From positions 337,776,001-337,840,000 of the forward strand of contig OZ024742.1 of the NCBI GenBank assembly GCA_964016885.1: DNA of 64,000 nucleotides. The letters are read 5' to 3'. The position numbers and the translations under genes are program-made. Under the pieces are notes generated by a model. The model was given only the letters and a program-made list of their open reading frames with translations. It was not told the DNA's origin and did no database searches. Shown in pieces: positions 14,657 through 58,967 of the stretch. Source of the stretch: Eledone cirrhosa. Taxonomy: Eukaryota. Within the stretch, counting starts at the first letter, position 1; every line of letters starts with the position of its first letter.

Positions 14657-14715
14657 ACCCCCGTCCAAAACCATGCAAGCGTGGAACACGGACGTTAAAC
14701 GTTGATGATGATGAT
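14657..14715 (+). mobile_element. RTE family B 3' tip
   Basis: ccccgtccaaaaccatgcaagcgtggaacacggacgttaaacgttgatgat. Confidence 0.9.
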
Positions 14716-14997
14716 ATACAAATATACATATATATATATATATATACATATATATACATATATACATATACACACATATATACATATACACACATATATA
14801 CATATATACACATATATACACGTATATACATATATATATACATAAATATATATATATATACATAAATGGAAAGTTATATTTAAAATTGTTGGGTTACAAC
14901 TAGTAAATATTTATAACTGATATAAAAGCACTCGACAAATATTTGGAGTATATTCACAATATTTAATAAATGGAAACTATATTTATAAAACCATATT

Positions 14998-15063
14998 TAT
15001 TTCATTATATATATTTCGGGGATATCATATTAACAATATGCTATGCCTTCCTCAGACAAAATA
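14998..15063 (-). ncRNA. Minimal type I hammerhead ribozyme motif (Penelope pLTR-like)
   Basis: Minus strand: tattttgt-CTGAGGA-aggcatagcatattgttaatatgatatcccc-GAAA-tatatata-atgaaata. Stem I is 8 bp (2 GU), stem II is long with 2 internal mismatches, stem III is palindromic, and the triplet is AUA. Confidence 0.65.
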
Positions 15064-15166
15064 CAATATAAACAGTTTTATAGATAAATGACTGCCAGCT
15101 TAAACCTCTTCAAATGGAAGTCGGTGTTATAACGGTATGTCGAATCTATTTATCTATAAAACTGTT

Positions 15167-18100
15167 AATATTGAAGAGATAAGACACTTTGCCATTCTTC
15201 TCTGCTAAAATGTACCACTAGAGCTGACTCAAATTTTCCCAGCCAGCCATCCACCTAATCTACGAAGGTATTTTAGCCTACATATTGTCGTTAATATTAT
15301 GATGTTCCCTGCTGTATTAGCGTTAAATTTTCCCTGCTGTATTAGCGATAAATTTTCGAGGGTTTCTCTTAGTAGCTTTTTCATGTCGTTAATATTATGA
15401 TGTTCCCTGCTGTATTAGCGTTAAATTTTCCCTGCTGTATTAGCGATAAATTTTCGAGGGTTTCTCTTAGTAGCTTTTTCATGTCGTTAATATTATGATG
15501 TTCCCTGCTGTATTAGCGTTAAATTTTCCCTGCTGTATTAGCGATAAATTTTCGAGGGTTTCTCTTAGTAGCTTTTTCATGTCGTTAATATTATGATGTT
15601 CCCTGCTGTATTAGCGTTAAATTTTCCCTGCTGTATTAGCGATAAATTTTCGAGGGTTTCTCTTAGTAGCTTTTTTCATGACGTTATTATTGTTAATTTT
15701 ACTGATGTAGTATTAACTTATTAACTTGGATATTTACCATGCGGTATTCTAATCCTATTGTATCTCTCTCAGTTATTTACCATGCGACCCTCAGTTCCTA
15801 CCCCCCCCCTCTATGCACTTCTTTAAGGCTTACTACCCTGTCTTTAACCTAATTCATTCAATCTGAAAATATTGAAGAGATAAGACACTTTGCCATTCTT
15901 CTCTGCTAAAATGTACCACTAGAGCTGACTCAAATTTTCCCAGCCAGCCATCCACCTAATCTACGAAGGTATTTTAGCCTACATATTGTCGTTAATATTA
16001 TGATGTTCCCTGCTGTATTAGCGTTAAATTTTCCCTGCTGTATTAGCGATAAATTTTCGAGGGTTTCTCTTAGTAGCTTTTTCATGTCGTTAATATTATG
16101 ATGTTCCCTGCTGTATTAGCGTTAAATTTTCCCTGCTGTATTAGCGATAAATTTTCGAGGGTTTCTCTTAGTAGCTTTTTCATGTCGTTAATATTATGAT
16201 GTTCCCTGCTGTATTAGCGTTAAATTTTCCCTGCTGTATTAGCGATAAATTTTCGAGGGTTTCTCTTAGTAGCTTTTTCATGTCGTTAATATTATGATGT
16301 TCCCTGCTGTATTAGCGTTAAATTTTCCCTGCTGTATTAGCGATAAATTTTCGAGGGTTTCTCTTAGTAGCTTTTTCATGTCGTTAATATTATGATGTTC
16401 CCTGCTGTATTAGCGTTAAATTTTCCCTGCTGTATTAGCGATAAATTTTCGAGGGTTTCTCTTAGTAGCTTTTTCATGTCGTTAATATTATGATGTTCCC
16501 TGCTGTATTAGCGTTAAATTTTCCCTGCTGTATTAGCGATAAATTTTCGAGGGTTTCTCTTAGTAGCTTTTTCATGTCGTTAATATTATGATGTTCCCTG
16601 CTGTATTAGCGTTAAATTTTCCCTGCTGTATTAGCGATAAATTTTCGAGGGTTTCTCTTAGTAGCTTTTTCATGTCGTTAATATTATGATGTTCCCTGCT
16701 GTATTAGCGTTAAATTTTCCCTGCTGTATTAGCGATAAATTTTCGAGGGTTTCTCTTAGTAGCTTTTTTCATGACGTTATTATTGTTAATTTTACTGATG
16801 TAGTATTAACTTATTAACTTGGATATTTACCATGCGGTATTCTAATCCTATTGTATCTCTCTCAGTTATTTACCATGCGACCCTCAGTTCCTACCCCCCC
16901 CCCCCCTCTATGCACTTCTTTAAGGCTTACTACCCTGTCTTTAACCTAATTCATTCAATCTGAAAATATTGAAGAGATAAGACACTTTGCCATTCTTCTC
17001 TGCTAAAATGTACCACTAGAGCTGACTCAAATTTTCCCAGCCAGCCATCCACCTAATCTACGAAGGTATTTTAGCCTACATATTGTCGTTAATATTATGA
17101 TGTTCCCTGCTGTATTAGCGTTAAATTTTCCCTGCTGTATTAGCGATAAATTTTCGAGGGTTTCTCTTAGTAGCTTTTTCATGTCGTTAATATTATGATG
17201 TTCCCTGCTGTATTAGCGTTAAATTTTCCCTGCTGTATTAGCGATAAATTTTCGAGGGTTTCTCTTAGTAGCTTTTTCATGTCGTTAATATTATGATGTT
17301 CCCTGCTGTATTAGCGTTAAATTTTCCCTGCTGTATTAGCGATAAATTTTCGAGGGTTTCTCTTAGTAGCTTTTTCATGTCGTTAATATTATGATGTTCC
17401 CTGCTGTATTAGCGTTAAATTTTCCCTGCTGTATTAGCGATAAATTTTCGAGGGTTTCTCTTAGTAGCTTTTTCATGTCGTTAATATTATGATGTTCCCT
17501 GCTGTATTAGCGTTAAATTTTCCCTGCTGTATTAGCGATAAATTTTCGAGGGTTTCTCTTAGTAGCTTTTTTCATGACGTTATTATTGTTAATTTTACTG
17601 ATGTAGTATTAACTTATTAACTTGGATATTTACCATGCGGTATTCTAATCCTATTGTATCTCTCTCAGTTATTTACCATGCGACCCCCAGTTCCTACCCC
17701 CCCCCCCCCCCCCTCTATGCACTTCTTTAAGGCTTACTACCCTGTCTTTAACCTAATTCATTCAATCTGAAAATATTGAAGAGATAAGACACTTTGCCAT
17801 TCTTCTCTGCTAAAATGTACCACTAGAGCTGACTCAAATTTTCCCAGCCAGCCATCCACCTAATCTACGAAGGTATTTTAGCCTACATATTGTCGTTAAT
17901 ATTATGATGTTCCCTGCTGTATTAGCGTTAAATTTTCCCTGCTGTATTAGCGATAAATTTTCGAGGGTTTCTCTTAGTAGCTTTTTCATGTCGTTAATAT
18001 TATGATGTTCCCTGCTGTATTAGCGTTAAATTTTCCCTGCTGTATTAGCGATAAATTTTCGAGGGTTTCTCTTAGTAGCTTTTTTCATGACGTTATTATT

Positions 18101-21100
18101 GTTAATTTTACTGATGTAGTATTAACTTATTAACTTGGATATTTACCATGCGGTATTCTAATCCTATTGTATCTCTCTCAGTTATTTACCATGCGACCCT
18201 CAGTTCCTACCCCCCCCCCCTCTATGCACTTCTTTAAGGCTTACTACCCTGTCTTTAACCTAATTCATTCAATCTGAAAATATTGAAGAGATAAGACACT
18301 TTGCCATTCTTCTCTGCTAAAATGTACCACTAGAGCTGACTCAAATTTTCCCAGCCAGCCATCCACCTAATCTACGAAGGTATTTTAGCCTACATATTGT
18401 CGTTAATATTATGATGTTCCCTGCTGTATTAGCGTTAAATTTTCCCTGCTGTATTAGCGATAAATTTTCGAGGGTTTCTCTTAGTAGCTTTTTCATGTCG
18501 TTAATATTATGATGTTCCCTGCTGTATTAGCGTTAAATTTTCCCTGCTGTATTAGCGATAAATTTTCGAGGGTTTCTCTTAGTAGCTTTTTCATGTCGTT
18601 AATATTATGATGTTCCCTGCTGTATTAGCGTTAAATTTTCCCTGCTGTATTAGCGATAAATTTTCGAGGGTTTCTCTTAGTAGCTTTTTCATGTCGTTAA
18701 TATTATGATGTTCCCTGCTGTATTAGCGTTAAATTTTCCCTGCTGTATTAGCGATAAATTTTCGAGGGTTTCTCTTAGTAGCTTTTTCATGTCGTTAATA
18801 TTATGATGTTCCCTGCTGTATTAGCGTTAAATTTTCCCTGCTGTATTAGCGATAAATTTTCGAGGGTTTCTCTTAGTAGCTTTTTCATGTCGTTAATATT
18901 ATGATGTTCCCTGCTGTATTAGCGTTAAATTTTCCCTGCTGTATTAGCGATAAATTTTCGAGGGTTTCTCTTAGTAGCTTTTTCATGTCGTTAATATTAT
19001 GATGTTCCCTGCTGTATTAGCGATAAATTTTCGAGGGTTTCTCTTAGTAGCTTTTTTCATGACGTTATTATTGTTAATTTTACTGATGTAGTATTAACTT
19101 ATTAACTTGGATATTTACCATGCGGTATTCTAATCCTATTGTATCTCTCTCAGTTATTTACCATGCGACCCCCATTTCCTACCCCCCCCCCTCTATGCAC
19201 TTCTTTAAGGCTTACTACCCTGTCTTTAACCTAATTCATTCAATCTGAAAATATTGAAGAGATAAGACACTTTGCCATTCTTCTCTGCTAAAATGTACCA
19301 CTAGAGCTGACTCAAATTTTCCCAGCCAGCCATCCACCTAATCTACGAAGGTATTTTAGCCTACATATTGTCGTTAATATTATGATGTTCCCTGCTGTAT
19401 TAGCGTTAAATTTTCCCTGCTGTATTAGCGATAAATTTTCGAGGGTTTCTCTTAGTAGCTTTTTCATGTCGTTAATATTATGATGTTACCTGCTGTATTA
19501 GCGTTAAATTTTCCCTGCTGTATTAGCGATAAATTTTCGAGGGTTTCTCTTAGTAGCTTTTTCATGTCGTTAATATTATGATGTTCCCTGCTGTATTAGC
19601 GTTAAATTTTCCCTGCTGTATTAGCGATAAATTTTCGAGGGTTTCTCTTAGTAGCTTTTTCATGTCGTTAATATTATGATGTTCCCTGCTGTATTAGCGT
19701 TAAATTTTCCCTGCTGTATTAGCGATAAATTTTCGAGGGTTTCTCTTAGTAGCTTTTTTCATGACGTTATTATTGTTAATTTTACTGATGTAGTATTAAC
19801 TTATTAACTTGGATATTTACCATGCGGTATTCTAATCCTATTGTATCTCTCTCAGTTATTTACCATGCGACCCTCAGTTCCTACCCCCCCCCCCCCTCTA
19901 TGCACTTCTTTAAGGCTTACTACCCTGTCTTTAACCTAATTCATTCAATCTGAAAATATTGAAGAGATAAGACACTTTGCCATTCTTCTCTGCTAAAATG
20001 TACCACTAGAGCTGACTCAAATTTTCCCAGCCAGCCATCCACCTAATCTACGAAGGTATTTTAGCCTACATATTGTCGTTAATATTATGATGTTCCCTGC
20101 TGTATTAGCGTTAAATTTTCCCTGCTGTATTAGCGATAAATTTTCGAGGGTTTCTCTTAGTAGCTTTTTCATGTCGTTAATATTATGATGTTCCCTGCTG
20201 TATTAGCGTTAAATTTTCCCTGCTGTATTAGCGATAAATTTTCGAGGGTTTCTCTTAGTAGCTTTTTCATGTCGTTAATATTATGATGTTCCCTGCTGTA
20301 TTAGCGTTAAATTTTCCCTGCTGTATTAGCGATAAATTTTCGAGGGTTTCTCTTAGTAGCTTTTTTCATGACGTTATTATTGTTAATTTTACTGATGTAG
20401 TATTAACTTATTAACTTGGATATTTACCATGCGGTATTCTAATCCTATTGTATCTCTCTCAGTTATTTACCATGCGACCCTCAGTTCCTACCCCCCCCCC
20501 TCTATGCACTTCTTTAAGGCTTACTACCCTGTCTTTAACCTAATTCATTCAATCTGAAAATATTGAAGAGATAAGACACTTTGCCATTCTTCTCTGCTAA
20601 AATGTACCACTAGAGCTGACTCAAATTTTCCCAGCCAGCCATCCACCTAATCTACGAAGGTATTTTAGCCTACATATTGTCGTTAATATTATGATGTTCC
20701 CTGCTGTATTAGCGTTAAATTTTCCCTGCTGTATTAGCGATAAATTTTCGAGGGTTTCTCTTAGTAGCTTTTTCATGTCGTTAATATTATGATGTTCCCT
20801 GCTGTATTAGCGTTAAATTTTCCCTGCTGTATTAGCGATAAATTTTCGAGGGTTTCTCTTAGTAGCTTTTTCATGTCGTTAATATTATGATGTTCCCTGC
20901 TGTATTAGCGTTAAATTTTCCCTGCTGTATTAGCGATAAATTTTCGAGGGTTTCTCTTAGTAGCTTTTTCATGTCGTTAATATTATGATGTTCCCTGCTG
21001 TATTAGCGTTAAATTTTCCCTGCTGTATTAGCGATAAATTTTCGAGGGTTTCTCTTAGTAGCTTTTTTCATGACGTTATTATTGTTAATTTTACTGATGT

Positions 21101-22743
21101 AGTATTAACTTATTAACTTGGATATTTACCATGCGGTATTCTAATCCTATTGTATCTCTCTCAGTTATTTACCATGCGACCCTCAGTTCCTACCCCCCCC
21201 CTCTATGCACTTCTTTAAGGCTTACTACCCTGTCTTTAACCTAATTCATTCAATCTGAAAATATTGAAGAGATAAGACACTTTGCCATTCTTCTCTGCTA
21301 AAATGTACCACTAGAGCTGACTCAAATTTTCCCAGCCAGCCATCCACCTAATCTACGAAGGTATTTTAGCCTACATATTGTCGTTAATATTATGATGTTC
21401 CCTGCTGTATTAGCGTTAAATTTTCCCTGCTGTATTAGCGATAAATTTTCGAGGGTTTCTCTTAGTAGCTTTTTCATGTCGTTAATATTATGATGTTCCC
21501 TGCTGTATTAGCGTTAAATTTTCCCTGCTGTATTAGCGATAAATTTTCGAGGGTTTCTCTTAGTAGCTTTTTCATGTCGTTAATATTATGATGTTCCCTG
21601 CTGTATTAGCGTTAAATTTTCCCTGCTGTATTAGCGATAAATTTTCGAGGGTTTCTCTTAGTAGCTTTTTCATGTCGTTAATATTATGATGTTCCCTGCT
21701 GTATTAGCGTTAAATTTTCCCTGCTGTATTAGCGATAAATTTTCGAGGGTTTCTCTTAGTAGCTTTTTCATGTCGTTAATATTATGATGTTCCCTGCTGT
21801 ATTAGCGTTAAATTTTCCCTGCTGTATTAGCGATAAATTTTCGAGGGTTTCTCTTAGTAGCTTTTTCATGTCGTTAATATTATGATGTTCCCTGCTGTAT
21901 TAGCGTTAAATTTTCCCTGCTGTATTAGCGATAAATTTTCGAGGGTTTCTCTTAGTAGCTTTTTCATGTCGTTAATATTATGATGTTCCCTGCTGTATTA
22001 GCGTTAAATTTTCCCTGCTGTATTAGCGATAAATTTTCGAGGGTTTCTCTTAGTAGCTTTTTCATGTCGTTAATATTATGATGTTCCCTGCTGTATTAGC
22101 GTTAAATTTTCCCTGCTGTATTAGCGATAAATTTTCGAGGGTTTCTCTTAGTAGCTTTTTTCATGACGTTATTATTGTTAATTTTACTGATGTAGTATTA
22201 ACTTATTAACTTGGATATTTACCATGCGGTATTCTAATCCTATTGTATCTCTCTCAGTTATTTACCATGCGACCCTCAGTTCCTACCCCCCCCCCCTCTA
22301 TGCACTTCTTTAAGGCTTACTACCCTGTCTTTAACCTAATTCATTCAATCTGAAAATATTGAAGAGATAAGACACTTTGCCATTCTTCTCTGCTAAAATG
22401 TACCACTAGAGCTGACTCAAATTTTCCCAGCCAGCCATCCACCTAATCTACGAAGGTATTTTAGCCTACATATTGTCGTTAATATTATGATGTTCCCTGC
22501 TGTATTAGCGTTAAATTTTCCCTGCTGTATTAGCGATAAATTTTCGAGGGTTTCTCTTAGTAGCTTTTTCATGTCGTTAATATTATGATGTTCCCTGCTG
22601 TATTAGCGTTAAATTTTCCCTGCTGTATTAGCGATAAATTTTCGAGGGTTTCTCTTAGTAGCTTTTTTCATGACGTTATTATTGTTAATTTTACTGATGT
22701 AGTATTAACTTGGATATTTACCATGCGACCCTCAGTTCCTACC
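15167..22743 (+). repeat. Higher-order tandem array 1: 10 units of (~310-bp linker + n x 98-bp monomer), n = 4,8,5,2,7,4,3,4,8,2
   Basis: Unit starts (aatattgaagag) at 15167, 15868, 16965, 17772, 18279, 19250, 19955, 20559, 21260 and 22355. The monomer has a 25-bp internal repeat. Confidence 0.95.
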
Positions 22744-22986
22744 TCACAATTTCCCTCCCCCCCACCCCCACACACCACCATAGTCAATTCGACCAATCAA
22801 ACCTAGCATGCCATTTCCACTGCTGCTGCTGCTACTACCTGCCTAACTAACTCTCTCCTCCTCTGGCGCATCCCAACACACCCTGCCATTACCCCACCAC
22901 CACTGTCCTTCTAGCCCTCAATTTTCCCACCGTTAGGGATGGATGAGCTGGGAATACACGAGCAACTCTGAATCAATAGATGAAAT

Positions 22987-25900
22987 ATGAATCTGCGAGC
23001 TACCAAGCACCCACGTGAAGCGCCAACCCAGAGACCCTCCCCTACGAGTGTCGACAAATGCCCAAAACTCCGAGTTGGTACCATCAATGTAGGCTCAATG
23101 AAAGGAAGAGCAGGAGAAATCGTAGAAATGCTAGAGCGAAAGGAAGTTGATGTATGCTGTGTGCAAGAGACTAGATGGAGAGGAGGGTCTGCTAGAGTCC
23201 TTGTAGGAAAAAGCCAGTGCTACAAATTTTTCTGGGTGGGAAATGACGATGGGATGGGTGGTGTAGGTATACTATTAGCTGACAAGTGGGTAGATAAAGT
23301 AATCTCAGTGTACAGGGTAAATGCAAGAATCATTAAACTCAGACTAGTCCTGAATAAGACAATTACCACAATAATATCAGCTTACGCACCCCAATCGGGG
23401 CTGCCAGACGAACTTAAGGATAGGTTTTACGAGTCCCTAATACACACTACTGCTCTAACAGACGACAAGGACTTCCTAATCATTGCAGGAGATTTTAACG
23501 GACACGTAGGTAAACACTGCGACGGCTTCGATAGAGTACATGGAGGCCATGGAGTTGGCACAAGGAATGAGGAAGGATTCAGACTTCTAGAATTCTGCGA
23601 CGCCAATGACATGTCGATATGTAACACAAACTTTAAAAAACCCGACAACCACCTGATCACCTATAGATCAGGGGAGCACTCTAGTCAGTTAGATTTTATC
23701 CTCATCAGAGGACGTGACAGATGGACGGTCGTAAACACAAAAGCCTTCCCTAGTGAGGAATGTACATCCCAACATAGCTTAGTTGTCAGCGACCTCACGG
23801 TCAGAACTAGACGAGCCCTGAAACAGAGGCCAACCTGGAGAAGAAAGATCTGGAAGCTGAAAGTCCCCTCAACCAGTAACAGATTTAAAGATATTTTACT
23901 CAACGCCTACGACAGTAAAGAAGAACAGATAGAGACATTTAACGTAGAAGAGAACTGGGAGTTCCTAAAAAATAACTTACTAGAGGCGACGGATGAGGTT
24001 TGTGGCTGGAGTAAGACCTCAAGCAGGAGGAGAGTGACTTGGTGGTGGAACAATAAGGTAGATGAAGCAGTCAAGGCCAAGAGACAGGCATGGAAAGAAT
24101 GGAAGAACGGGGGGAGCAGGGTACATTACATAGAGACCAAGAGGGAAGCTAGGCGACAAGTATACTTAGCTAGGAGGGAAGCAGAGGATAGAAAATTCAA
24201 GCATGTTTTACAACGTGAGGACCAGAAACAGGAGGTATTCAAGATTGCGAGGCAGTGTGTCAGAGATAGTTGTGATGTCATTGGAGAGAAGTGTATCCGG
24301 AATGATAAAGGTGAGCTTGCCCTCACAAGTGCTGAGAAGAAAGATGCATGGAAGAGTCATTATGATAGATTACTAAATGAGGAGAATGCATGGGAAGAAG
24401 AGACCCTACCCCACGTAGACCCTATAGAGGGACCAGCAGTACAAGTCAGCGGCAGCGTAGTAAGTAAGGCAATCAGAGATATGAAGATAGGGAAGGCAAC
24501 CGGTCCATCGGGTATAGCTGCCGAGATGCTGAAGGCATCTGGGTCTGTAGGTCACACTATAACCACACGTATCGTTAACCAGGTAATACTAGAGGGGGCC
24601 ATACCAAAAGATTGGTGCAGTAGCATCATTGTCAACTGCTACAAAGGTAAAGGCGATGCACTAGATAGAGGAAACTATAGAGGTATAAAGTTGATGGACC
24701 AGGTCATGAAAGTAACAGAAAGAGTTATAGCACAGCTGATTAGGGACCGGGTGAATATAGACGAGATGCAATTTGGGTTTGTTCCAGGGAAAGGCACCAC
24801 TGATGCGCTCTTCCTTGTGAGGCAATTACAGGAAAAGTACCTAGCTAAAAGTAAGCCACTCTACTTGGCATTTGTCGACCTTGAGAAAGCCTTTGACAGA
24901 GTTCCACGTGCAGTAATCTGGTGGGCTCTTAGAAAACTAGGAGTAGATGAATGGCTTGTGAAAGCGGTACAAGCCATGTATAGGGGAGCAGTCAGCAAAG
25001 TTAGGATTGGCAATGAGTATAGCGAGGAATTTAGCGTACAGGTTGGGGTCCACCAGGGCTCTGTTCTTAGCCCTCTCCTGTTCATCATAGTCCTGCAGGC
25101 AATAACGGAGGAGTTTAAGACCGGATGCCCATGGGAACTCCTGTATGCTGATGACCTCGCACTCATAGCTGAATCTATGGTAGAACTAGAGAATAAATTC
25201 CAAACCTGGAAGCAGGGACTAGAGAGAAAGGGCCTCAAAGTCAACATGACAAAGACTAAGGTCCTTATAAGTAGACGAGAAAACAGAACCCAGATCCCCT
25301 CAGGGAAATGGCCTTGCTCAGTATGTAGGAAAGGTGTAGGTAGGAACTCCATTCTTTGCCCCAAATGCAAACAATGGGTACACAAGAGATGTAGCGGGAT
25401 CTCAGGAAGCTTAATTAAGAATGTAGGATTCACATGCAGCAGCTGTGCTGAAACAGCAAGCAAACAGCCACAGGAAACAAGTACCACCAATCTCTGGGAG
25501 GGCCCTGTAGAAACAGTAGACAGCTTCTGCTACCTAGGTGACCGAATTAGCAACGGAGGTGGGTGCTCAGAAAGTACAATAACTAGGGTAAGAACGGGAT
25601 GGAAGAAGTTTAGGGAACTACTACCACTGCTAGCTGCAAAAGGCTTCTCCCTCAGAATGAAAGGCAGACTGTATGATGCGTGTATCCGAACAGCGATGTT
25701 GCATGGTAGTGAGACCTGGGCGCTGAAGGTGGAAGACTTACGTAGATTAGAGAGAAACGAAGCCTGCATGCTCCGATGGATGTGTAACAGTAATATACGT
25801 GAACGACAAAGCATAAATGAATTGAGAGAGAGACTGAGCATAAGAGGAATCAAATGCTGCGTGCAGGAGAGGCGGTTACGCTGGTATGGACATGTGATGC

Positions 25901-49557: not shown

Positions 49558-52500
49558 TATTAGCGTTAAATTTTCCCTGCTGTATTAGCGATAAATTTTC
49601 GAGGGTTTCTCTTAGTAGCTTCTTCATGTCGTTAATATTATGATGTTCCCTGCTGTATTAGCGTTAAATTTTCCCTGCTGTATTAGCGATAAATTTTCGA
49701 GGGTTTCTCTTAGTAGCTTCTTCATGTCGTTAATATTATGATGTTCCCTGCTGTATTAGCGTTAAATTTTCCCTGCTGTATTAGCGATAAATTTTCGAGG
49801 GTTTCTCTTAGTAGCTTTTTCATGTCGTTAATATTATGATGCTCCCTGCTGTATTAGCGTTAAATTTTCCCTGCTGTATTAGCGATAAATTTTCGAGGGT
49901 TTCTCTTAGTAGCTTTTTTCATGACGTTATTATTGTTAATTTTACTGATGTAGTATTAACTTATTAACTTGGATATTTACCATGCGGTATTCTAATCCTA
50001 TTGTATCTCTCTCAGTTATTTACCATGCGACCCTCAGTTCCTACCCCCCCCCCCCCCCTCTATGCACTTCTTTAAGGCTTACTACCCTGTCTTTAACCTA
50101 ATTCATTCAATCTGAAAATATTGAAGAGATAAGACACTTTGCCATTCTTCTCTGCTAAAATGTACCACTGAGCTGATTCAAATTTTCCCAGCCAGCCATC
50201 CACCTAATCTACGAAGGTATTTTAGCCTACATATTGTCGTTAATATTATGATGTTCCCTGCTGTATTAGCGTTAAATTTTCCCTGCTGTATTAGCGATAA
50301 ATTTTCGAGGGTTTCTCTTAGTAGCTTCTTCATGTCGTTAATATTATGATGTTCCCTGCTGTATTAGCGTTAAATTTTCCCTGCTGTATTAGCGATAAAT
50401 TTTCGAGGGTTTCTCTTAGTAGCTTCTTCATGTCGTTAATATTATGATGTTCCCTGCTGTATTAGCGTTAAATTTTCCCTGCTGTATTAGCGATAAATTT
50501 TCGAGGGTTTCTCTTAGTAGCTTCTTCATGTCGTTAATATTATGATGTTCCCTGCTGTATTAGCGTTAAATTTTCCCTGCTGTATTAGCGATAAATTTTC
50601 GAGGGTTTCTCTTAGTAGCTTTTTCATGTCGTTAATATTATGATGTTCCCTGCTGTATTAGCGTTAAATTTTCCCTGCTGTATTAGCGATAAATTTTCGA
50701 GGGTTTCTCTTAGTAGCTTTTTTCATGACGTTATTATTGTTAATTTTACTGATGTAGTATTAACTTATTAACTTGGATATTTACCATGCGGTATTCTAAT
50801 CCTATTGTATCTCTCTCAGTTATTTACCATGCGACCCTCAGTTCCTACCCCCCCCCCTCTATGCACTTCTTTAAGGCTTACTACCCTGTCTTTAACCTAA
50901 TTCATTCAATCTGAAAATATTGAAGAGATAAGACACTTTGCCATTCTTCTCTGCTAAAATGTACCACTGAGCTGATTCAAATTTTCCCAGCCAGCCATCC
51001 ACCTAATCTACGAAGGTATTTTAGCCTACATATTGTCGTTAATATTATGATGTTCCCTGCTGTATTAGCGTTAAATTTTCCCTGCTGTATTAGCGATAAA
51101 TTTTCGAGGGTTTCTCTTAGTAGCTTCTTCATGTCGTTAATATTATGATGTTCCCTGCTGTATTAGCGTTAAATTTTCCCTGCTGTATTAGCGATAAATT
51201 TTCGAGGGTTTCTCTTAGTAGCTTCTTCATGTCGTTAATATTATGATGTTCCCTGCTGTATTAGCGTTAAATTTTCCCTGCTGTATTAGCGATAAATTTT
51301 CGAGGGTTTCTCTTAGTAGCTTTTTCATGTCGTTAATATTATGATGTTCCCTGCTGTATTAGCGTTAAATTTTCCCTGCTGTATTAGCGATAAATTTTCG
51401 AGGGTTTCTCTTAGTAGCTTTTTTCATGACGTTATTATTGTTAATTTTACTGATGTAGTATTAACTTATTAACTTGGATATTTACCATGCGGTATTCTAA
51501 TCCTATTGTATCTCTCTCAGTTATTTACCATGCGACCCTCAGTTCCTACCCCCCCCCCTCTATGCACTTCTTTAAGGCTTACTACCCTGTCTTTAACCTA
51601 ATTCATTCAATCTGAAAATATTGAAGAGATAAGACACTTTGCCATTCTTCTCTGCTAAAATGTACCACTGAGCTGATTCAAATTTTCCCAGCCAGCCATC
51701 CACCTAATCTACGAAGGTATTTTAGCCTACATATTGTCGTTAATATTATGATGTTCCCTGCTGTATTAGCGTTAAATTTTCCCTGCTGTATTAGCGATAA
51801 ATTTTCGAGGGTTTCTCTTAGTAGCTTCTTCATGTCGTTAATATTATGATGTTCCCTGCTGTATTAGCGTTAAATTTTCCCTGCTGTATTAGCGATAAAT
51901 TTTCGAGGGTTTCTCTTAGTAGCTTCTTCATGTCGTTAATATTATGATGTTCCCTGCTGTATTAGCGTTAAATTTTCCCTGCTGTATTAGCGATAAATTT
52001 TCGAGGGTTTCTCTTAGTAGCTTTTTCATGTCGTTAATATTATGATGTTCCCTGCTGTATTAGCGTTAAATTTTCCCTGCTGTATTAGCGATAAATTTTC
52101 GAGGGTTTCTCTTAGTAGCTTTTTTCATGACGTTATTATTGTTAATTTTACTGATGTAGTATTAACTTATTAACTTGGATATTTACCATGCGGTATTCTA
52201 ATCCTATTGTATCTCTCTCAGTTATTTACCATGCGACCCTCAGTTCCTACCCCCCCCCCCCTCTATGCACTTCTTTAAGGCTTACTACCCTGTCTTTAAC
52301 CTAATTCATTCAATCTGAAAATATTGAAGAGATAAGACACTTTGCCATTCTTCTCTGCTAAAATGTACCACTGAGCTGATTCAAATTTTCCCAGCCAGCC
52401 ATCCACCTAATCTACGAAGGTATTTTAGCCTACATATTGTCGTTAATATTATGATGTTCCCTGCTGTATTAGCGTTAAATTTTCCCTGCTGTATTAGCGA

Positions 52501-54799
52501 TAAATTTTCGAGGGTTTCTCTTAGTAGCTTCTTCATGTCGTTAATATTATGATGTTCCCTGCTGTATTAGCGTTAAATTTTCCCTGCTGTATTAGCGATA
52601 AATTTTCGAGGGTTTCTCTTAGTAGCTTCTTCATGTCGTTAATATTATGATGTTCCCTGCTGTATTAGCGTTAAATTTTCCCTGCTGTATTAGCGATAAA
52701 TTTTCGAGGGTTTCTCTTAGTAGCTTCTTCATGTCGTTAATATTATGATGTTCCCTGCTGTATTAGCGTTAAATTTTCCCTGCTGTATTAGCGATAAATT
52801 TTCGAGGGTTTCTCTTAGTAGCTTCTTCATGTCGTTAATATTATGATGTTCCCTGCTGTATTAGCGTTAAATTTTCCCTGCTGTATTAGCGATAAATTTT
52901 CGAGGGTTTCTCTTAGTAGCTTTTTCATGTCGTTAATATTATGATGTTCCCTGCTGTATTAGCGTTAAATTTTCCCTGCTGTATTAGCGATAAATTTTCG
53001 AGGGTTTCTCTTAGTAGCTTTTTTCATGACGTTATTATTGTTAATTTTACTGATGTAGTATTAACTTATTAACTTGGATATTTACCATGCGGTATTCTAA
53101 TCCTATTGTATCTCTCTCAGTTATTTACCATGCGACCCTCAGTTCCTACCCCCCCCCCTCTATGCACTTCTTTAAGGCTTACTACCCTGTCTTTAACCTA
53201 ATTCATTCAATCTGAAAATATTGAAGAGATAAGACACTTTGCCATTCTTCTCTGCGAAAATGTACCACTGAGCTGATTCAAATTTTCCCAGCCAGCCATC
53301 CACCTAATCTACGAAGGTATTTTAGCCTACATATTGTCGTTAATATTATGATGTTCCCTGCTGTATTAGCGTTAAATTTTCCCTGCTGTATTAGCGATAA
53401 ATTTTCGAGGGTTTCTCTTAGTAGCTTCTTCATGTCGTTAATATTATGATGTTCCCTGCTGTATTAGCGTTAAATTTTCCCTGCTGTATTAGCGATAAAT
53501 TTTCGAGGGTTTCTCTTAGTAGCTTCTTCATGTCGTTAATATTATGATGTTCCCTGCTGTATTAGCGTTAAATTTTCCCTGCTGTATTAGCGATAAATTT
53601 TCGAGGGTTTCTCTTAGTAGCTTCTTCATGTCGTTAATATTATGATGTTCCCTGCTGTATTAGCGTTAAATTTTCCCTGCTGTATTAGCGATAAATTTTC
53701 GAGGGTTTCTCTTAGTAGCTTTTTCATGTCGTTAATATTATGATGTTCCCTGCTGTATTAGCGTTAAATTTTCCCTGCTGTATTAGCGATAAATTTTCGA
53801 GGGTTTCTCTTAGTAGCTTTTTTCATGACGTTATTATTGTTAATTTTACTGATGTAGTATTAACTTATTAACTTGGATATTTACCATGCGGTATTCTAAT
53901 CCTATTGTATCTCTCTCAGTTATTTACCATGCGACCCTCAGTTCCTACCCCCCCCCCCCCCTCTATGCACTTCTTTAAGGCTTACTACCCTGTCTTTAAC
54001 CTAATTCATTCAATCTGAAAATATTGAAGAGATAAGACACTTTGCCATTCTTCTCTGCTAAAATGTACCACTGAGCTGATTCAAATTTTCCCAGCCAGCC
54101 ATCCACCTAATCTACGAAGGTATTTTAGCCTACATATTGTCGTTAATATTATGATGTTCCCTGCTGTATTAGCGTTAAATTTTCCCTGCTGTATTAGCGA
54201 TAAATTTTCGAGGGTTTCTCTTAGTAGCTTCTTCATGTCGTTAATATTATGATGTTCCCTGCTGTATTAGCGTTAAATTTTCCCTGCTGTATTAGCGATA
54301 AATTTTCGAGGGTTTCTCTTAGTAGCTTCTTCATGTCGTTAATATTATGATGTTCCCTGCTGTATTAGCGTTAAATTTTCCCTGCTGTATTAGCGATAAA
54401 TTTTCGAGGGTTTCTCTTAGTAGCTTCTTCATGTCGTTAATATTATGATGTTCCCTGCTGTATTAGCGTTAAATTTTCCCTGCTGTATTAGCGATAAATT
54501 TTCGAGGGTTTCTCTTAGTAGCTTCTTCATGTCGTTAATATTATGATGTTCCCTGCTGTATTAGCGTTAAATTTTCCCTGCTGTATTAGCGATAAATTTT
54601 CGAGGGTTTCTCTTAGTAGCTTTTTCATGTCGTTAATATTATGATGTTCCCTGCTGTATTAGCGTTAAATTTTCCCTGCTGTATTAGCGATAAATTTTCG
54701 AGGGTTTCTCTTAGTAGCTTTTTTCATGACGTTATTATTGTTAATTTTACTGATGTAGTATTAACTTGGATATTTACCATGCGACCCTCAGTTCCTACC
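49558..54799 (+). repeat. Higher-order tandem array 2: n = partial+3,5,4,4,6,5,6
   Basis: Unit starts at 50117, 50916, 51617, 52320, 53217 and 54020. The array begins mid-monomer at the (TA)n junction. Confidence 0.95.
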
Positions 54800-55042
54800 T
54801 CACAATTTCCCTCCCCCCCACCCCCACACACCACCATAGTCTATTCGACCAATCAAACCTAGCATGCCATTTCCACTGCTGCTGCTGCTACTACCTGCCT
54901 AACTAACTCTCTCCTCCTCTGGCGCATCCCAACACACCCTGCCATTACCCCACCACCACTGTCCTTCTAGCCCTCAATTTTCCCACCGTTAGGGATGGAT
55001 GAGCTGGGAATACACGAGCAACTCTGAATCAATAGATGAAAT

Positions 55043-58000
55043 ATGAATCTGCGAGCTACCAAGCACCCACGTGAAGCGCCAACCCAGAGACCCTCCCCTA
55101 CGAGTGTCGACAAATGCCCAAAACTCCGAGTTGGTACCATCAATGTAGGCTCAATGAAAGGAAGAGCAGGAGAAATCGTAGAAATGCTAGAGCGAAAGGA
55201 AGTTGATGTATGCTGTGTGCAAGAGACTAGATGGAGAGGAGGGTCTGCTAGAGTCCTTGTAGGAAAAAGCCAGTGCTACAAATTTTTCTGGGTGGGAAAT
55301 GACGATGGGATGGGTGGTGTAGGTATACTATTAGCTGACAAGTGGGTAGATAAAGTAATCTCAGTGTACAGGGTAAATGCAAGAATCATTAAACTCAGAC
55401 TAGTCCTGAATAAGACAATTACCACAATAATATCAGCTTACGCACCCCAATCGGGGCTGCCAGACGAACTTAAGGATAGGTTTTACGAGTCCCTAATACA
55501 CACTACTGCTCTAACAGACGACAAGGACTTCCTAATCATTGCAGGAGATTTTAACGGACACGTAGGTAAACACTGCGACGGCTTCAATAGAGTACATGGA
55601 GGCCATGGAGTTGGCACAAGGAATGAGGAAGGATTCAGACTTCTAGAATTCTGCGACGCCAATGACATGTCGATATGTAACACAAACTTTAAAAAACCCG
55701 ACAACCACCTGATCACCTATAGATCAGGGGAGCACTCTAGTCAGTTAGATTTTATCCTCATCAGAGGACGTGACAGATGGACGGTCGTAAACACAAAAGC
55801 CTTCCCTAGTGAGGAATGTACATCCCAACATAGCTTAGTTGTCAGCGACCTCACGGTCAGAACTAGACGAGCCCTGAAACAGAGGCCAACCTGGAGAAGA
55901 AAGATCTGGAAGCTGAAAGTCCCCTCAACCAGTAACAGATTTAAAGATATTTTACTCAACGCCTACGACAGTAAAGAAGAACAGATAGAGACATTTAACG
56001 TAGAAGAGAACTGGGAGTTCCTAAAAAATAACTTACTAGAGGCGACGGATGAGGTTTGTGGCTGGAGTAAGACCTCAAGCAGGAGGAGAGTGACTTGGTG
56101 GTGGAACAATAAGGTAGATGAAGCAGTCAAGGCCAAGAGACAGGCATGGAAAGAATGGAAGAACGGGGGGAGCAGGGTACATTACATAGAGACCAAGAGG
56201 GAAGCTAGGCGACAAGTATACTTAGCTAGGAGGGAAGCAGAGGATAGAAAATTCAAGCATGTTTTACAACGTGAGGACCAGAAACAGGAGGTATTCAAGA
56301 TTGCGAGGCAGTGTGTCAGAGATAGTTGTGATGTCATTGGAGAGAAGTGTATCCGGAATGATAAAGGTGAGCTTGCCCTCACAAGTGCTGAGAAGAAAGA
56401 TGCATGGAAGAGTCATTATGATAGATTACTAAATGAGGAGAATGCATGGGAAGAAGAGACCCTACCCCACGTAGACCCTATAGAGGGACCAGCAGTACAA
56501 GTCAGCGGCAGCGTAGTAAGTAAGGCAATCAGAGATATGAAGATAGGGAAGGCAACCGGTCCATCGGGTATAGCTGCCGAGATGCTGAAGGCATCTGGGT
56601 CTGTAGGTCACACTATAACCACACGTATCGTTAACCAGGTAATACTAGAGGGGGCCATACCAAAAGATTGGTGCAGTAGCATCATTGTCAACTGCTACAA
56701 AGGTAAAGGCGATGCACTAGATAGAGGAAACTATAGAGGTATAAAGTTGATGGACCAGGTCATGAAAGTAACAGAAAGAGTTATAGCACAGCTGATTAGG
56801 GACCGGGTGAATATAGATGAGATGCAATTTGGGTTTGTTCCAGGGAAAGGCACCACTGATGCGCTCTTCCTTGTGAGGCAATTACAGGAAAAGTACCTAG
56901 CTAAAAGTAAGCCACTCTACTTGGCATTTGTCGACCTTGAGAAAGCCTTTGACAGAGTTCCACGTGCAGTAATCTGGTGGGCTCTTAGAAAACTAGGAGT
57001 AGATGAATGGCTTGTGAAAGCGGTACAAGCCATGTATAGGGGAGCAGTCAGCAAAGTTAGGATTGGCAATGAGTATAGCGAGGAATTTAGCGTACAGGTT
57101 GGGGTCCACCAGGGCTCTGTTCTTAGCCCTCTCCTGTTCATCATAGTCCTGCAGGCAATAACGGAGGAGTTTAAGACCGGATGCCCATGGGAACTCCTGT
57201 ATGCTGATGACCTCGCACTCATAGCTGAATCTATGGTAGAACTAGAGAATAAATTCCAAACCTGGAAGCAGGGACTAGAGAGAAAGGGCCTCAAAGTCAA
57301 CATGACAAAGACTAAGGTCCTTATAAGTAGACGAGAAAACAGAACCCAGATCCCCTCAGGGAAATGGCCTTGCTCAGTATGTAGGAAAGGTGTAGGTAGG
57401 AACTCCATTCTTTGCCCCAAATGCAAACAATGGGTACACAAGAGATGTAGCGGGATCTCAGGAAGCTTAATTAAGAATGTAGGATTCACATGCAGCAGCT
57501 GTGCTGAAACAGCAAGCAAACAGCCACAGGAAACAAGTACCACCAATCTCTGGGAGGGCCCTGTAGAAACAGTAGACAGCTTCTGCTACCTAGGTGACCG
57601 AATTAGCAACGGAGGTGGGTGCTCAGAAAGTACAATAACTAGGGTAAGAACGGGATGGAAGAAGTTTAGGGAACTACTACCACTGCTAGCTGCAAAAGGC
57701 TTCTCCCTCAGAATGAAAGGCAGACTGTATGATGCGTGTATCCGAACAGCGATGTTGCATGGTAGTGAGACCTGGGCGCTGAAGGTGGAAGACTTACGTA
57801 GATTAGAGAGAAACGAAGCCTGCATGCTCCGATGGATGTGTAACAGTAATATACGTGAACGACAAAGCATAAATGAATTGAGAGAGAGACTGAGCATAAG
57901 AGGAATCAAATGCTGCGTGCAGGAGAGGCGGTTACGCTGGTATGGACATGTGATGCGTATGAAGGATGACAGCTGCATAAAAAGGTGCAGAGCACTAGAA

Positions 58001-58162
58001 GTTGATGGAAACCGCGGAGTGGGGAGACCCAAGATGACTTGGGATGAGGTGATAAAAGCCGACCTTACCCAACTACACCTCTCAAAGTCAATGACACACG
58101 ACCGTGACTTCTGGCGTCACGCAGTAATACAGGGTACCCGACCTCCCATGGGTACATGCTGA
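55043..58162 (+). CDS. RTE-clade protein, 1039 aa, intact
   Basis: One visible amino-acid difference (GFDRV to GFNRV) from 22987-26106. Confidence 0.97.
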
Positions 58163-58177
58163 AGCATATAAACAATA

Positions 58178-58967
58178 TGTGTATGTATATATATGTATAT
58201 ATATGTGTATGTATATATATGTATATATATATGTGTATGTATATATATCTATATATATGTGTATGTATATATATGTGTATGTATATATATATGTGTATGT
58301 ATATATATGTGTATGTATATATATATGTGTATGTATATATATGTGTATGTATATATATATGTGTATGTATATATATGTATATATGTGTATGTATATATAT
58401 GTATATATGTGTATGTATATATATGAATATATATGTATATATATGTGTATGTATATATATATGTGTATGTATATATATGTATATATATATATATGTATGT
58501 ATATATATATATATGTATGTATATATATATATATGTATGTATATATATGTATATATATATATATGTGTATGTATATATATGTATGTATATATATGTATAT
58601 ATACGTATGTATATATATGTATATATATATGTGTATGTATCTATATGTATATATATATGTGTATGTATATATATATATATGTGTGTATGTATATATATGT
58701 ATATATATATGTGTGTGTATGTATATATATGTATATATATATGTGTATGTTTGTATATATATGTGTATGTATATATATGTATATATATGTGTGTTTGTAT
58801 ATATATGTATATATATATGTGTATGTATATATATATGTGTATGTATATATATGTGTGTATGTATATATATGTGTGTATGTATATATATGTATATATATAT
58901 GTGTATGTATATATATGTGTATATATATGTGTATATATATGTGTATATATATGTGTATATATGTGTG

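What the first reader, a model, noticed from the sequence alone, without database searches (positions are those of the whole stretch)
14866..15166. Antisense hammerhead and 19-bp inverted repeat fused to the head of array 1
Seen: a 300-bp AT-rich segment lies between (TA)n and the first array unit. It holds a minus-strand hammerhead motif (14998-15063) followed by aataaa, plus a perfect inverted repeat aacagttttatagataaat (15071-15089 / 15148-15166) that ends exactly at the array junction. Inference: either a Penelope-type pLTR abutting the RTE by chance, or the true 5' end of family A. The latter would be a PLE/RTE chimera with a self-cleaving antisense transcript through the array.
Basis: partly seen in the sequence, partly recalled or inferred. 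Interest (0 to 1): 0.7.

Follow-up and report, generated by a model that had tools for sequence, protein, structure and literature searches.

The report
Penelope stub clipped by another retroelement
The self-cutting-RNA motif and the short mirror repeat are real, but they are the clipped leftover of a very common back-to-back insertion of a Penelope-type jumping gene, joined at this one spot only to an unrelated jumping gene, so this is likely an accident and not a hybrid element.

Summary
The motif and inverted repeat are real; the chimera reading fails. Bases 14866-15166 are two 5'-truncated terminal repeats (pLTRs) of a Penelope-like element (PLE) joined head to head in a (TA)n tract; both arms are 99-100% identical to another copy's pLTR. 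The 48-nt hammerhead motif occurs 3,757 times in this genome. An intact parent (pLTR, 737-aa ORF, pLTR) carries the motifs of the published Hydra clade. In 28 of 29 other loci the right arm is complete; here its last 114 nt are missing, and the 19-bp repeat is just the surviving overlap. The junction with the array occurs once in 3.0 Gb; 0 of 11 other array heads, nor array 2, carry the segment. It lies at a 6-of-7 microhomology, so it is likely a one-off insertion or deletion scar. The hammerhead points away from the array. Side result: 25 of 25 inverted pairs carry the 91-nt tail on one end only, and 14 of 30 arms start at an initiator-like site. The scan reported this layout before on other DNA (e1-9512201, e1-9877229).

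The parts
14714..14865 (.). (TA)n-rich microsatellite, the target of the PLE insertion; follows the 3' end of an upstream RT-coding element
14866..15089 (-). Left arm: 5'-truncated pLTR of the Hydra-type PLE, intact 3' end with tail, reading away from the array
   Evidence: 224 nt, 99.1% to L167 and 97.3% to the intact parent L155
14866..14956 (-). PLE tail, about 91 nt between the two fixed 3' end sites (borders blurred by a few bases of TA)
14998..15063 (-). Type I minimal hammerhead motif; core CUGAGGA 15055-15049; predicted cut between 15006 and 15005
   Evidence: cleavage not tested
15090..15090 (+). Single G between the arms, templated by neither arm nor parent
   Evidence: a cap-derived origin was tested and stayed inconclusive
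15091..15166 (+). Right arm: first 76 nt of a second pLTR copy, starting at the A of an initiator-like TCACTG site; cut 114 nt before its usual end, so its hammerhead is lost; holds a GTATGT donor-like hexamer at 15135
   Evidence: 76 of 76 identical to L167; 114 nt missing; start-site pile-up
15071..15166 (.). The 19-bp inverted repeat (15071-15089 / 15148-15166): the part of the pLTR still present in both arms
15160..15173 (+). Unique junction: the PLE would continue TATATTG, the array continues AATATTG (6 of 7 bases shared)
15167..22683 (+). 5' tandem array of family A (98-bp subrepeats in longer higher-order units), 5'-truncated at an arbitrary point
22984..26106 (+). Family A ORF, 1040 aa stop to stop: endonuclease, reverse transcriptase, PHD-like finger; the element ends in GAT repeats near 26395, before a (TA)n tract

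Best explanation
The segment is two shortened end-repeats of a Penelope-like element joined head to head in a TA microsatellite, and its right arm was likely clipped in a single accident that joined it to the truncated head of an unrelated RTE-type element. Shown: family membership, the autonomous parent, the missing 114 nt, the uniqueness of the junction, the one-tail rule. Inferred step 1: the PLE protein cut the (TA)n tract and primed two cDNAs, one from each end of the break, at two fixed RNA sites about 91 nt apart (tail and no tail). Inferred step 2: the cDNAs ran to or near the 5' end of an RNA starting at the TCACTG site in the pLTR and were joined, giving a hairpin of about 415 bp with a hammerhead on each strand. 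Inferred step 3: family A then inserted into the right-hand (TA)n, and its truncated 5' end annealed at TATATTG/AATATTG, deleting 114 nt of the arm; a later deletion between the same two words would give the same product. The surviving hammerhead is predicted to be nearly silent, as a lone minimal motif without its start site.
For: The segment is a dispersed family: 30 loci fetched from 40 scored of 1,141 candidates. 28 of the 29 other loci continue into a full inverted arm and (TA)n. The motif occurs 3,757 times. Parent L155 has hammerheads 4.1 kb apart around a 737-aa ORF, and L154 adds an inverted truncated copy. The ORF has YRDD, RWR, DKT, CxCx5C, CxxC and CxH, conserved in 40 aligned homologues. 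Its profile hits five ORFs picked from the GIY-YIG search at E 1e-15 to 3e-22, against 0.004 for the family A ORF. The junction is unique. 0 of 11 other array heads carry the segment, and their start points differ. 0 of 109 PLE loci hold an array unit. The tail is on exactly one outer end in 11 of 11 pairs among the first 30 motif hits on contig 1 and in 14 of 14 further pairs chosen by spacing. 14 of 30 arms start 0-7 nt downstream of the TCACTG A, and none 1-29 nt upstream.
Against: The order of events cannot be read; there is no target duplication in (TA)n and no empty allele. The microhomology is imperfect (6 of 7, offset by a mismatch). Pfam and PDB did not recognise the parent ORF, and no tree with reference Hydra sequences was built. 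One of 28 two-armed loci in the query-biased set (L012) has tails on both ends. Arkhipova et al. 2013 explain head-to-head repeats by self-priming on an antisense template, not by two primings. Only 11 of about 1,200 candidate array places were traced to their heads, although the pattern searches covered the whole assembly.
Confidence: 0.9

Rival explanations
1. The segment is the true 5' end of family A: a stable PLE/RTE chimera whose antisense transcript self-cleaves.
For: The join is flush, with no (TA)n between arm and array. Both elements are young (arms 99-100% to L167; family A copies 99.9% alike).
Against: The junction occurs once in 3.0 Gb. 0 of 11 other heads and array 2 lack it, and arrays elsewhere start further upstream in the unit. 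The hammerhead arm reads away from the array. The active monomer fold scores -1.7 against -7.6 kcal/mol for the free fold.
Confidence: 0.02
2. The array was there first; the PLE stub inserted into (TA)n just upstream of it, and a later deletion between the two ATATTG words removed the arm end, the TA tract and some array.
For: Gives the same sequence; 5 of 12 array heads (L065, L066, L067, L073, array 2) are directly preceded by TA tracts; long palindromes are deletion-prone (own knowledge).
Against: Needs one more event than insertion with target deletion; no intermediate allele seen. It does not change the verdict.
Confidence: 0.3
3. The segment is a fold-back DNA transposon (MITE) whose inverted repeats happen to hold a hammerhead-like motif.
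For: Short copies look like 415-430 bp palindromes in (TA)n.
Against: The arms are the 3' ends of an RT-coding element and vary from 20 nt to several kb upstream of the motif; the ends are asymmetric (tail on one side); helix II covaries.
Confidence: 0.02

Closest known systems
Hydra clade of C-terminal-endonuclease PLEs (Craig et al. 2021, PMC8557442; passages, section 11 and part 2 of supplementary file 1 read), including Hydra-1_Obim from Octopus bimaculoides
   Same: Single ORF; RW(K/R), DKT, CxCx5C linker, CxxC and CxH around conserved E and N; hammerhead near the 3' end; (TA)n targets; an inverted truncated copy is listed for Penelope-13_HM; several listed Hydra hammerheads also have a non-Watson-Crick pair at the base of helix II.
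   Different: The hammerhead sequence differs from that of Hydra-1_Obim, so this is another family. The unit is 4.1 kb with a 1.6-kb low-complexity 3' region (published: mostly under 3 kb). The helix III insert is 8 nt (most listed Hydra motifs have 9-10).
Inverted-pLTR-plus-tail insertions of endonuclease-bearing PLEs (Arkhipova et al. 2013, PMC3846280, passages; Craig et al. 2021)
   Same: Head-to-head truncated pLTRs, a tail at one end, palindromes at the inverted junction, and an initiator-like TCACT in the pLTR.
   Different: The tail is about 91 nt, not 30-40; here the one-end rule held in 25 of 25 pairs; one arm of this copy is secondarily clipped.
Minimal hammerheads of metazoan PLEs (Cervera and de la Pena 2014, PMC4209133; parts 1-2 of 4 read)
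   Same: Type I, long helix II, short helix III with a palindromic loop; that paper already notes dual motifs 100-700 bp apart on opposite strands and low, dimer-dependent activity.
   Different: G10.1-C11.1 forms only if the A after the core is bulged; covariation favours an A-C mismatch at that position in this family.
PAc Poseidon element in vitro (Frangieh et al. 2024, PMC11167929; passages and second half of the main text read)
   Same: Two RT start sites inside the RNA bracket the tail; both DNA strands are cut and extended; AT-rich targets; hammerhead cleavage not needed for insertion.
   Different: Another clade; its two sites are closer; the paper passages read do not show the strict pairing of one site per end.

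Membership tests
Hydra-clade PLE (parent of the segment) | Segment is the pLTR of an element laid out pLTR-ORF-pLTR | tested here: met
   L155 and L156; window arms 97-100% to pLTRs
Hydra-clade PLE (parent of the segment) | Single ORF with PLE-type RT and C-terminal GIY-YIG endonuclease | tested here: met
   Indirect: invariant D259, YRDD, Y618/YxG631-633/R642/H646; profile hits PLE ORFs at E down to 3e-22; Atlas neighbours carry PF26215 and GIY-YIG. Pfam and PDB gave no direct hit for P0001.
Hydra-clade PLE (parent of the segment) | RWK, DKT, CxCx5C, CxxC and CxH motifs | tested here: met
   P0001 has RWR38, DKT119, CNCRDRSKC597, CDLC695, CKH722; among 64 proteins of 650 aa or more: 52, 61, 43, 62 and 61. 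RWR is a variant of RWK.
Hydra-clade PLE (parent of the segment) | No CCHH motif inside the GIY-YIG core | tested here: met
   The only cysteine in the core (C620) is alanine in 35 of 40 aligned proteins
Hydra-clade PLE (parent of the segment) | (TA)n insertion preference and a hammerhead in the pLTR | tested here: met
Hydra-clade PLE (parent of the segment) | Phylogenetic placement with reference Hydra RTs | not tested
   No reference proteins were fetched
Minimal PLE hammerhead | CUGANGA and GAAA cores, NUH triplet, helix I | tested here: met
   8 of 8 diverged relatives found without a core requirement keep TGANGA and GAAA, one with C3 changed to U
Minimal PLE hammerhead | Compensatory change in helix II; palindromic helix III/loop 3 | tested here: met
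   5 of 6 helix II pairs change on both sides in 14 hand-picked variants, 0 of 500 shuffles as high (relatedness inflates this); helix I has only one-sided changes; AUAUAUAU is self-complementary
Minimal PLE hammerhead | Extra nucleotide after position 9 and G10.1-C11.1 pair | tested here: inconclusive
   Possible by bulging the A, but the fold and covariation put A opposite C
Minimal PLE hammerhead | Self-cleavage | not testable with these tools
   Needs an assay
PLE/RTE chimeric family | Same junction in several independent copies | tested here: not met
   1 match genome-wide; 0 of 11 other heads
Non-LTR retrozyme | Hammerhead in each unit of a tandem array | tested here: not met
   The motif scan found it once in the window, outside the array units
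RTE clade (family A) | RT phylogeny | not tested

The most novel reading that the evidence does not exclude
The clipped right arm keeps the PLE's start site and a splice-donor-like hexamer and points in the sense direction into the array and an intact family A ORF. It could act as a captured promoter, making this locus a newborn PLE-headed LINE source that has not yet produced copies.
Probability: 0.05. Interest if true: 0.5.

Novelty: new member of a known kind. Interest (0 to 1): 0.14.

Why it matters
As found, it matters little: one nested-transposon scar. The family behind it is of modest use. With thousands of near-identical young copies and an intact parent, it offers large counts for how PLEs insert (one tail per insertion, a fixed RNA 5' end), which is still an open mechanism. 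A true PLE/LINE chimera would have shown modules moving between retroelement classes, but the data reject it.

Tried and rejected
Rfam at gathering score: no hit. GIY-YIG family search to find the parent: none of 30 loci and none of 20 long-ORF stretches held this hammerhead; the parent was found through motif spacing instead. Pfam and PDB searches with the parent ORF and its alignment: nothing useful. Expression: no RNA holder listed, which says nothing either way. Contigs of four runs from one study: no listed piece bridged the junction, which is uninformative. Cap-derived G at the right arm's start: 154 arms begin G-ACTG, 201 begin A/T-ACTG and 1,209 read through; in 11 of 30 G loci the opposite arm could supply the G, 6 were scored untemplated (one probably spurious) and 13 unclear, so inconclusive. 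A coding role for the arms: no shared open frame among relatives. MITE and retrozyme readings rejected (see rivals and tests). Paper searches for an RTE/Penelope chimera with a hammerhead and for octopus Penelope hammerheads listed no report of such a chimera, judged by titles and abstract starts; five searches in all. Sequence look-up in earlier scan notes: nothing.

Full report
Observation. The window lies at G000:C3:337,776,001-337,840,000 in a 3.0-Gb animal assembly. The 19-bp repeat is exact and folds far better than shuffles. The minus strand of 14998-15063 carries a complete type I minimal hammerhead layout, which my descriptor found in 0 of 20,000 simulated sequences. It is not a stable fold on its own (z = +0.89; active conformation -1.7 against -7.6 kcal/mol). 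Rfam did not report it. AATAAA overlaps stem I and is not constant.

The segment is a free-standing repeat. A search with 14866-15166 had 1,141 candidates, of which 40 were scored and 30 fetched, the window's own included. In 28 of the other 29, the sequence runs on past the window's junction into a full inverted arm with a second hammerhead and then (TA)n; L028 has a shorter arm. The 19-bp repeat is therefore what remains of a palindrome with arms of about 170 bp, after the loss of 114 nt. The exact 48-nt motif, one base free, occurs 1,868 + 1,889 times, with 0 for the reversed control. Among the 100 listed hits most are divergent pairs, from about 50 bp to 5.7 kb apart.

The parent. I fetched 20 stretches chosen by motif spacing. 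L155 has two direct pLTRs 4.1 kb apart around an intact 737-aa ORF; L154 shows the same element with an inverted truncated copy upstream; L156 is a broken copy closer to the window's subfamily. The window's arms match the pLTRs of L167 at 222 of 224 and 76 of 76 bases. Pfam and PDB do not recognise the ORF. It has 136 homologues at E <= 1e-10 among 7,996 scored; the named ones are Argonauta hians proteins at 37-41%. Its profile hits other PLE ORFs of this genome. It shows the motifs that Craig et al. give for the Hydra clade (counts, columns). Their supplement already lists a cephalopod Hydra family, with a different hammerhead. Clade membership rests on motifs, not on a tree.

The hammerhead. 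Eight diverged relatives found by a profile, without asking for the core, all keep TGANGA and GAAA. For the pair count I hand-picked 14 of 33 distinct variants from a scan that did require the core, dropping near-identical copies, one partial duplicate and two rows with poor stem I. Helix I is paired in all cells with one-sided changes only; 5 of 6 helix II pairs change on both sides; 0 of 500 shuffles score as high, though relatedness inflates this. This is the motif that Cervera and de la Pena describe, including pairs on opposite strands and weak, dimer-dependent cleavage. In intact copies a read-through RNA would bury the motif in a hairpin of about -220 kcal/mol.

The junction. The 25-mer across it occurs once with up to one mismatch, and a pattern allowing a 0-30 nt shift also occurs once. 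I took 12 stretches upstream of arrays among the best hits (40 scored of 1,214); 11 held an array head. All start at different points of the unit, and none has the PLE segment upstream; array 2 of the window starts directly after TA repeats. None of 109 PLE loci holds an array unit. No other part of the PLE lies in the window, so the lost arm was deleted, not displaced. At the join the PLE would read TATATTG and the array reads AATATTG. Microhomology of this kind at truncated 5' ends is known for LINEs (own knowledge; also invoked in PMC3846280).

How it works. Among the first 30 motif hits on contig 1, every arm ended at one of two sites about 91 nt apart, and 11 of 11 pairs had one of each. 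14 further pairs chosen by spacing behaved the same, one with a base variant that the script scored 'other'. L012, in the query-biased set, is a counter-example with two tails. 14 of the 30 arms begin 0-7 nt downstream of the A in TTTTCACTG, 5 are shorter, 11 are longer by 30 nt or more, and none ends in between; alignment through the pyrimidine tract is imprecise. TCACT is the initiator-like word noted in rotifer pLTRs, and Penelope has an internal promoter (abstract). With the in vitro results for PAc (two internal RT starts, both strands extended), the likely route is two cDNAs primed from the two ends of one break on RNA that starts in the pLTR. This is inference; self-priming on an antisense template is the published alternative. 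The window's right arm starts exactly at that A and points into the array, so any leftover promoter would give sense, not antisense, RNA. The hammerhead arm reads outward and lacks the start.

Verdict. An ordinary PLE stub with a one-off junction to a second retroelement; chimera about 2%; interest 0.14. Earlier scan notes, read only after these tests, reached the same class for similar inserts; they are not independent support. One of them led me to PMC3846280. Papers seen: PMC4209133 parts 1-2 of 4; PMC8557442 passages, section 11 and supplement part 2 of 59; PMC11167929 passages and second half of the main text; PMC3846280 and PMC13282606 passages; PMC2377424 abstract; bioRxiv 10.64898/2026.07.22.740005 part 1 of 5. 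The unread supplement parts (Hydra consensus sequences) may show how close this family is to published ones.

Noticed in passing
window 15167-26395 and 49558-58179; L032-L073: Family A carries multi-kb 5' tandem arrays with nested 98-bp subrepeats, truncated at arbitrary points; 8 of 9 array-end loci tested run into the element's 5' region. Array hits on G000:C2 span about 34 kb (403.806-403.840 Mb; not read continuously). A LINE with a satellite-sized 5' array may deserve its own look.
   Followed up: partly
window 22984-26106 and 55040-58162: Two intact family A ORFs, 99.9% alike, with a PHD-like finger after the RT domain; several more copies of it and of a 74-76% relative lie nested in the window's TA tracts.
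   Followed up: no
L155:619-2835 (G000:C1:68544800-68550300): Intact, young Hydra-type PLE with a 1.6-kb low-complexity 3' region that diverges faster between subfamilies (80%) than the ORF (96%).
   Followed up: partly
L155:338-541; window 15135-15140: A GTATGT donor-like hexamer about 45 nt after the apparent start site is kept in diverged relatives, and acceptor-like sites lie in the tail: a possible 5' UTR intron containing the hammerhead. Read from sequence only.
   Followed up: no
L006:1047-1254, L008:909-1443, L009:1171-1345, L016:775-836, L025:2984-3087, L067:1547-1731, L114, L131, L132, L145: Several diverged sister families share the core, stem I and the downstream AT-rich block but have different helix II stems; a C-C mismatch three pairs into helix II is nearly constant.
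   Followed up: partly
L199, L182, L014, L026, L172: Centres of some palindromes hold small tandem or fold-back copies of the first 10-15 nt of the arm, as if the cDNA end re-primed several times before joining.
   Followed up: no
L104-L123: Other PLE-like ORFs up to 1096 aa with GIY-YIG matches, some in inverted pairs, without this hammerhead; 10,596 GIY-YIG candidates in the genome, 150 scored.
   Followed up: no
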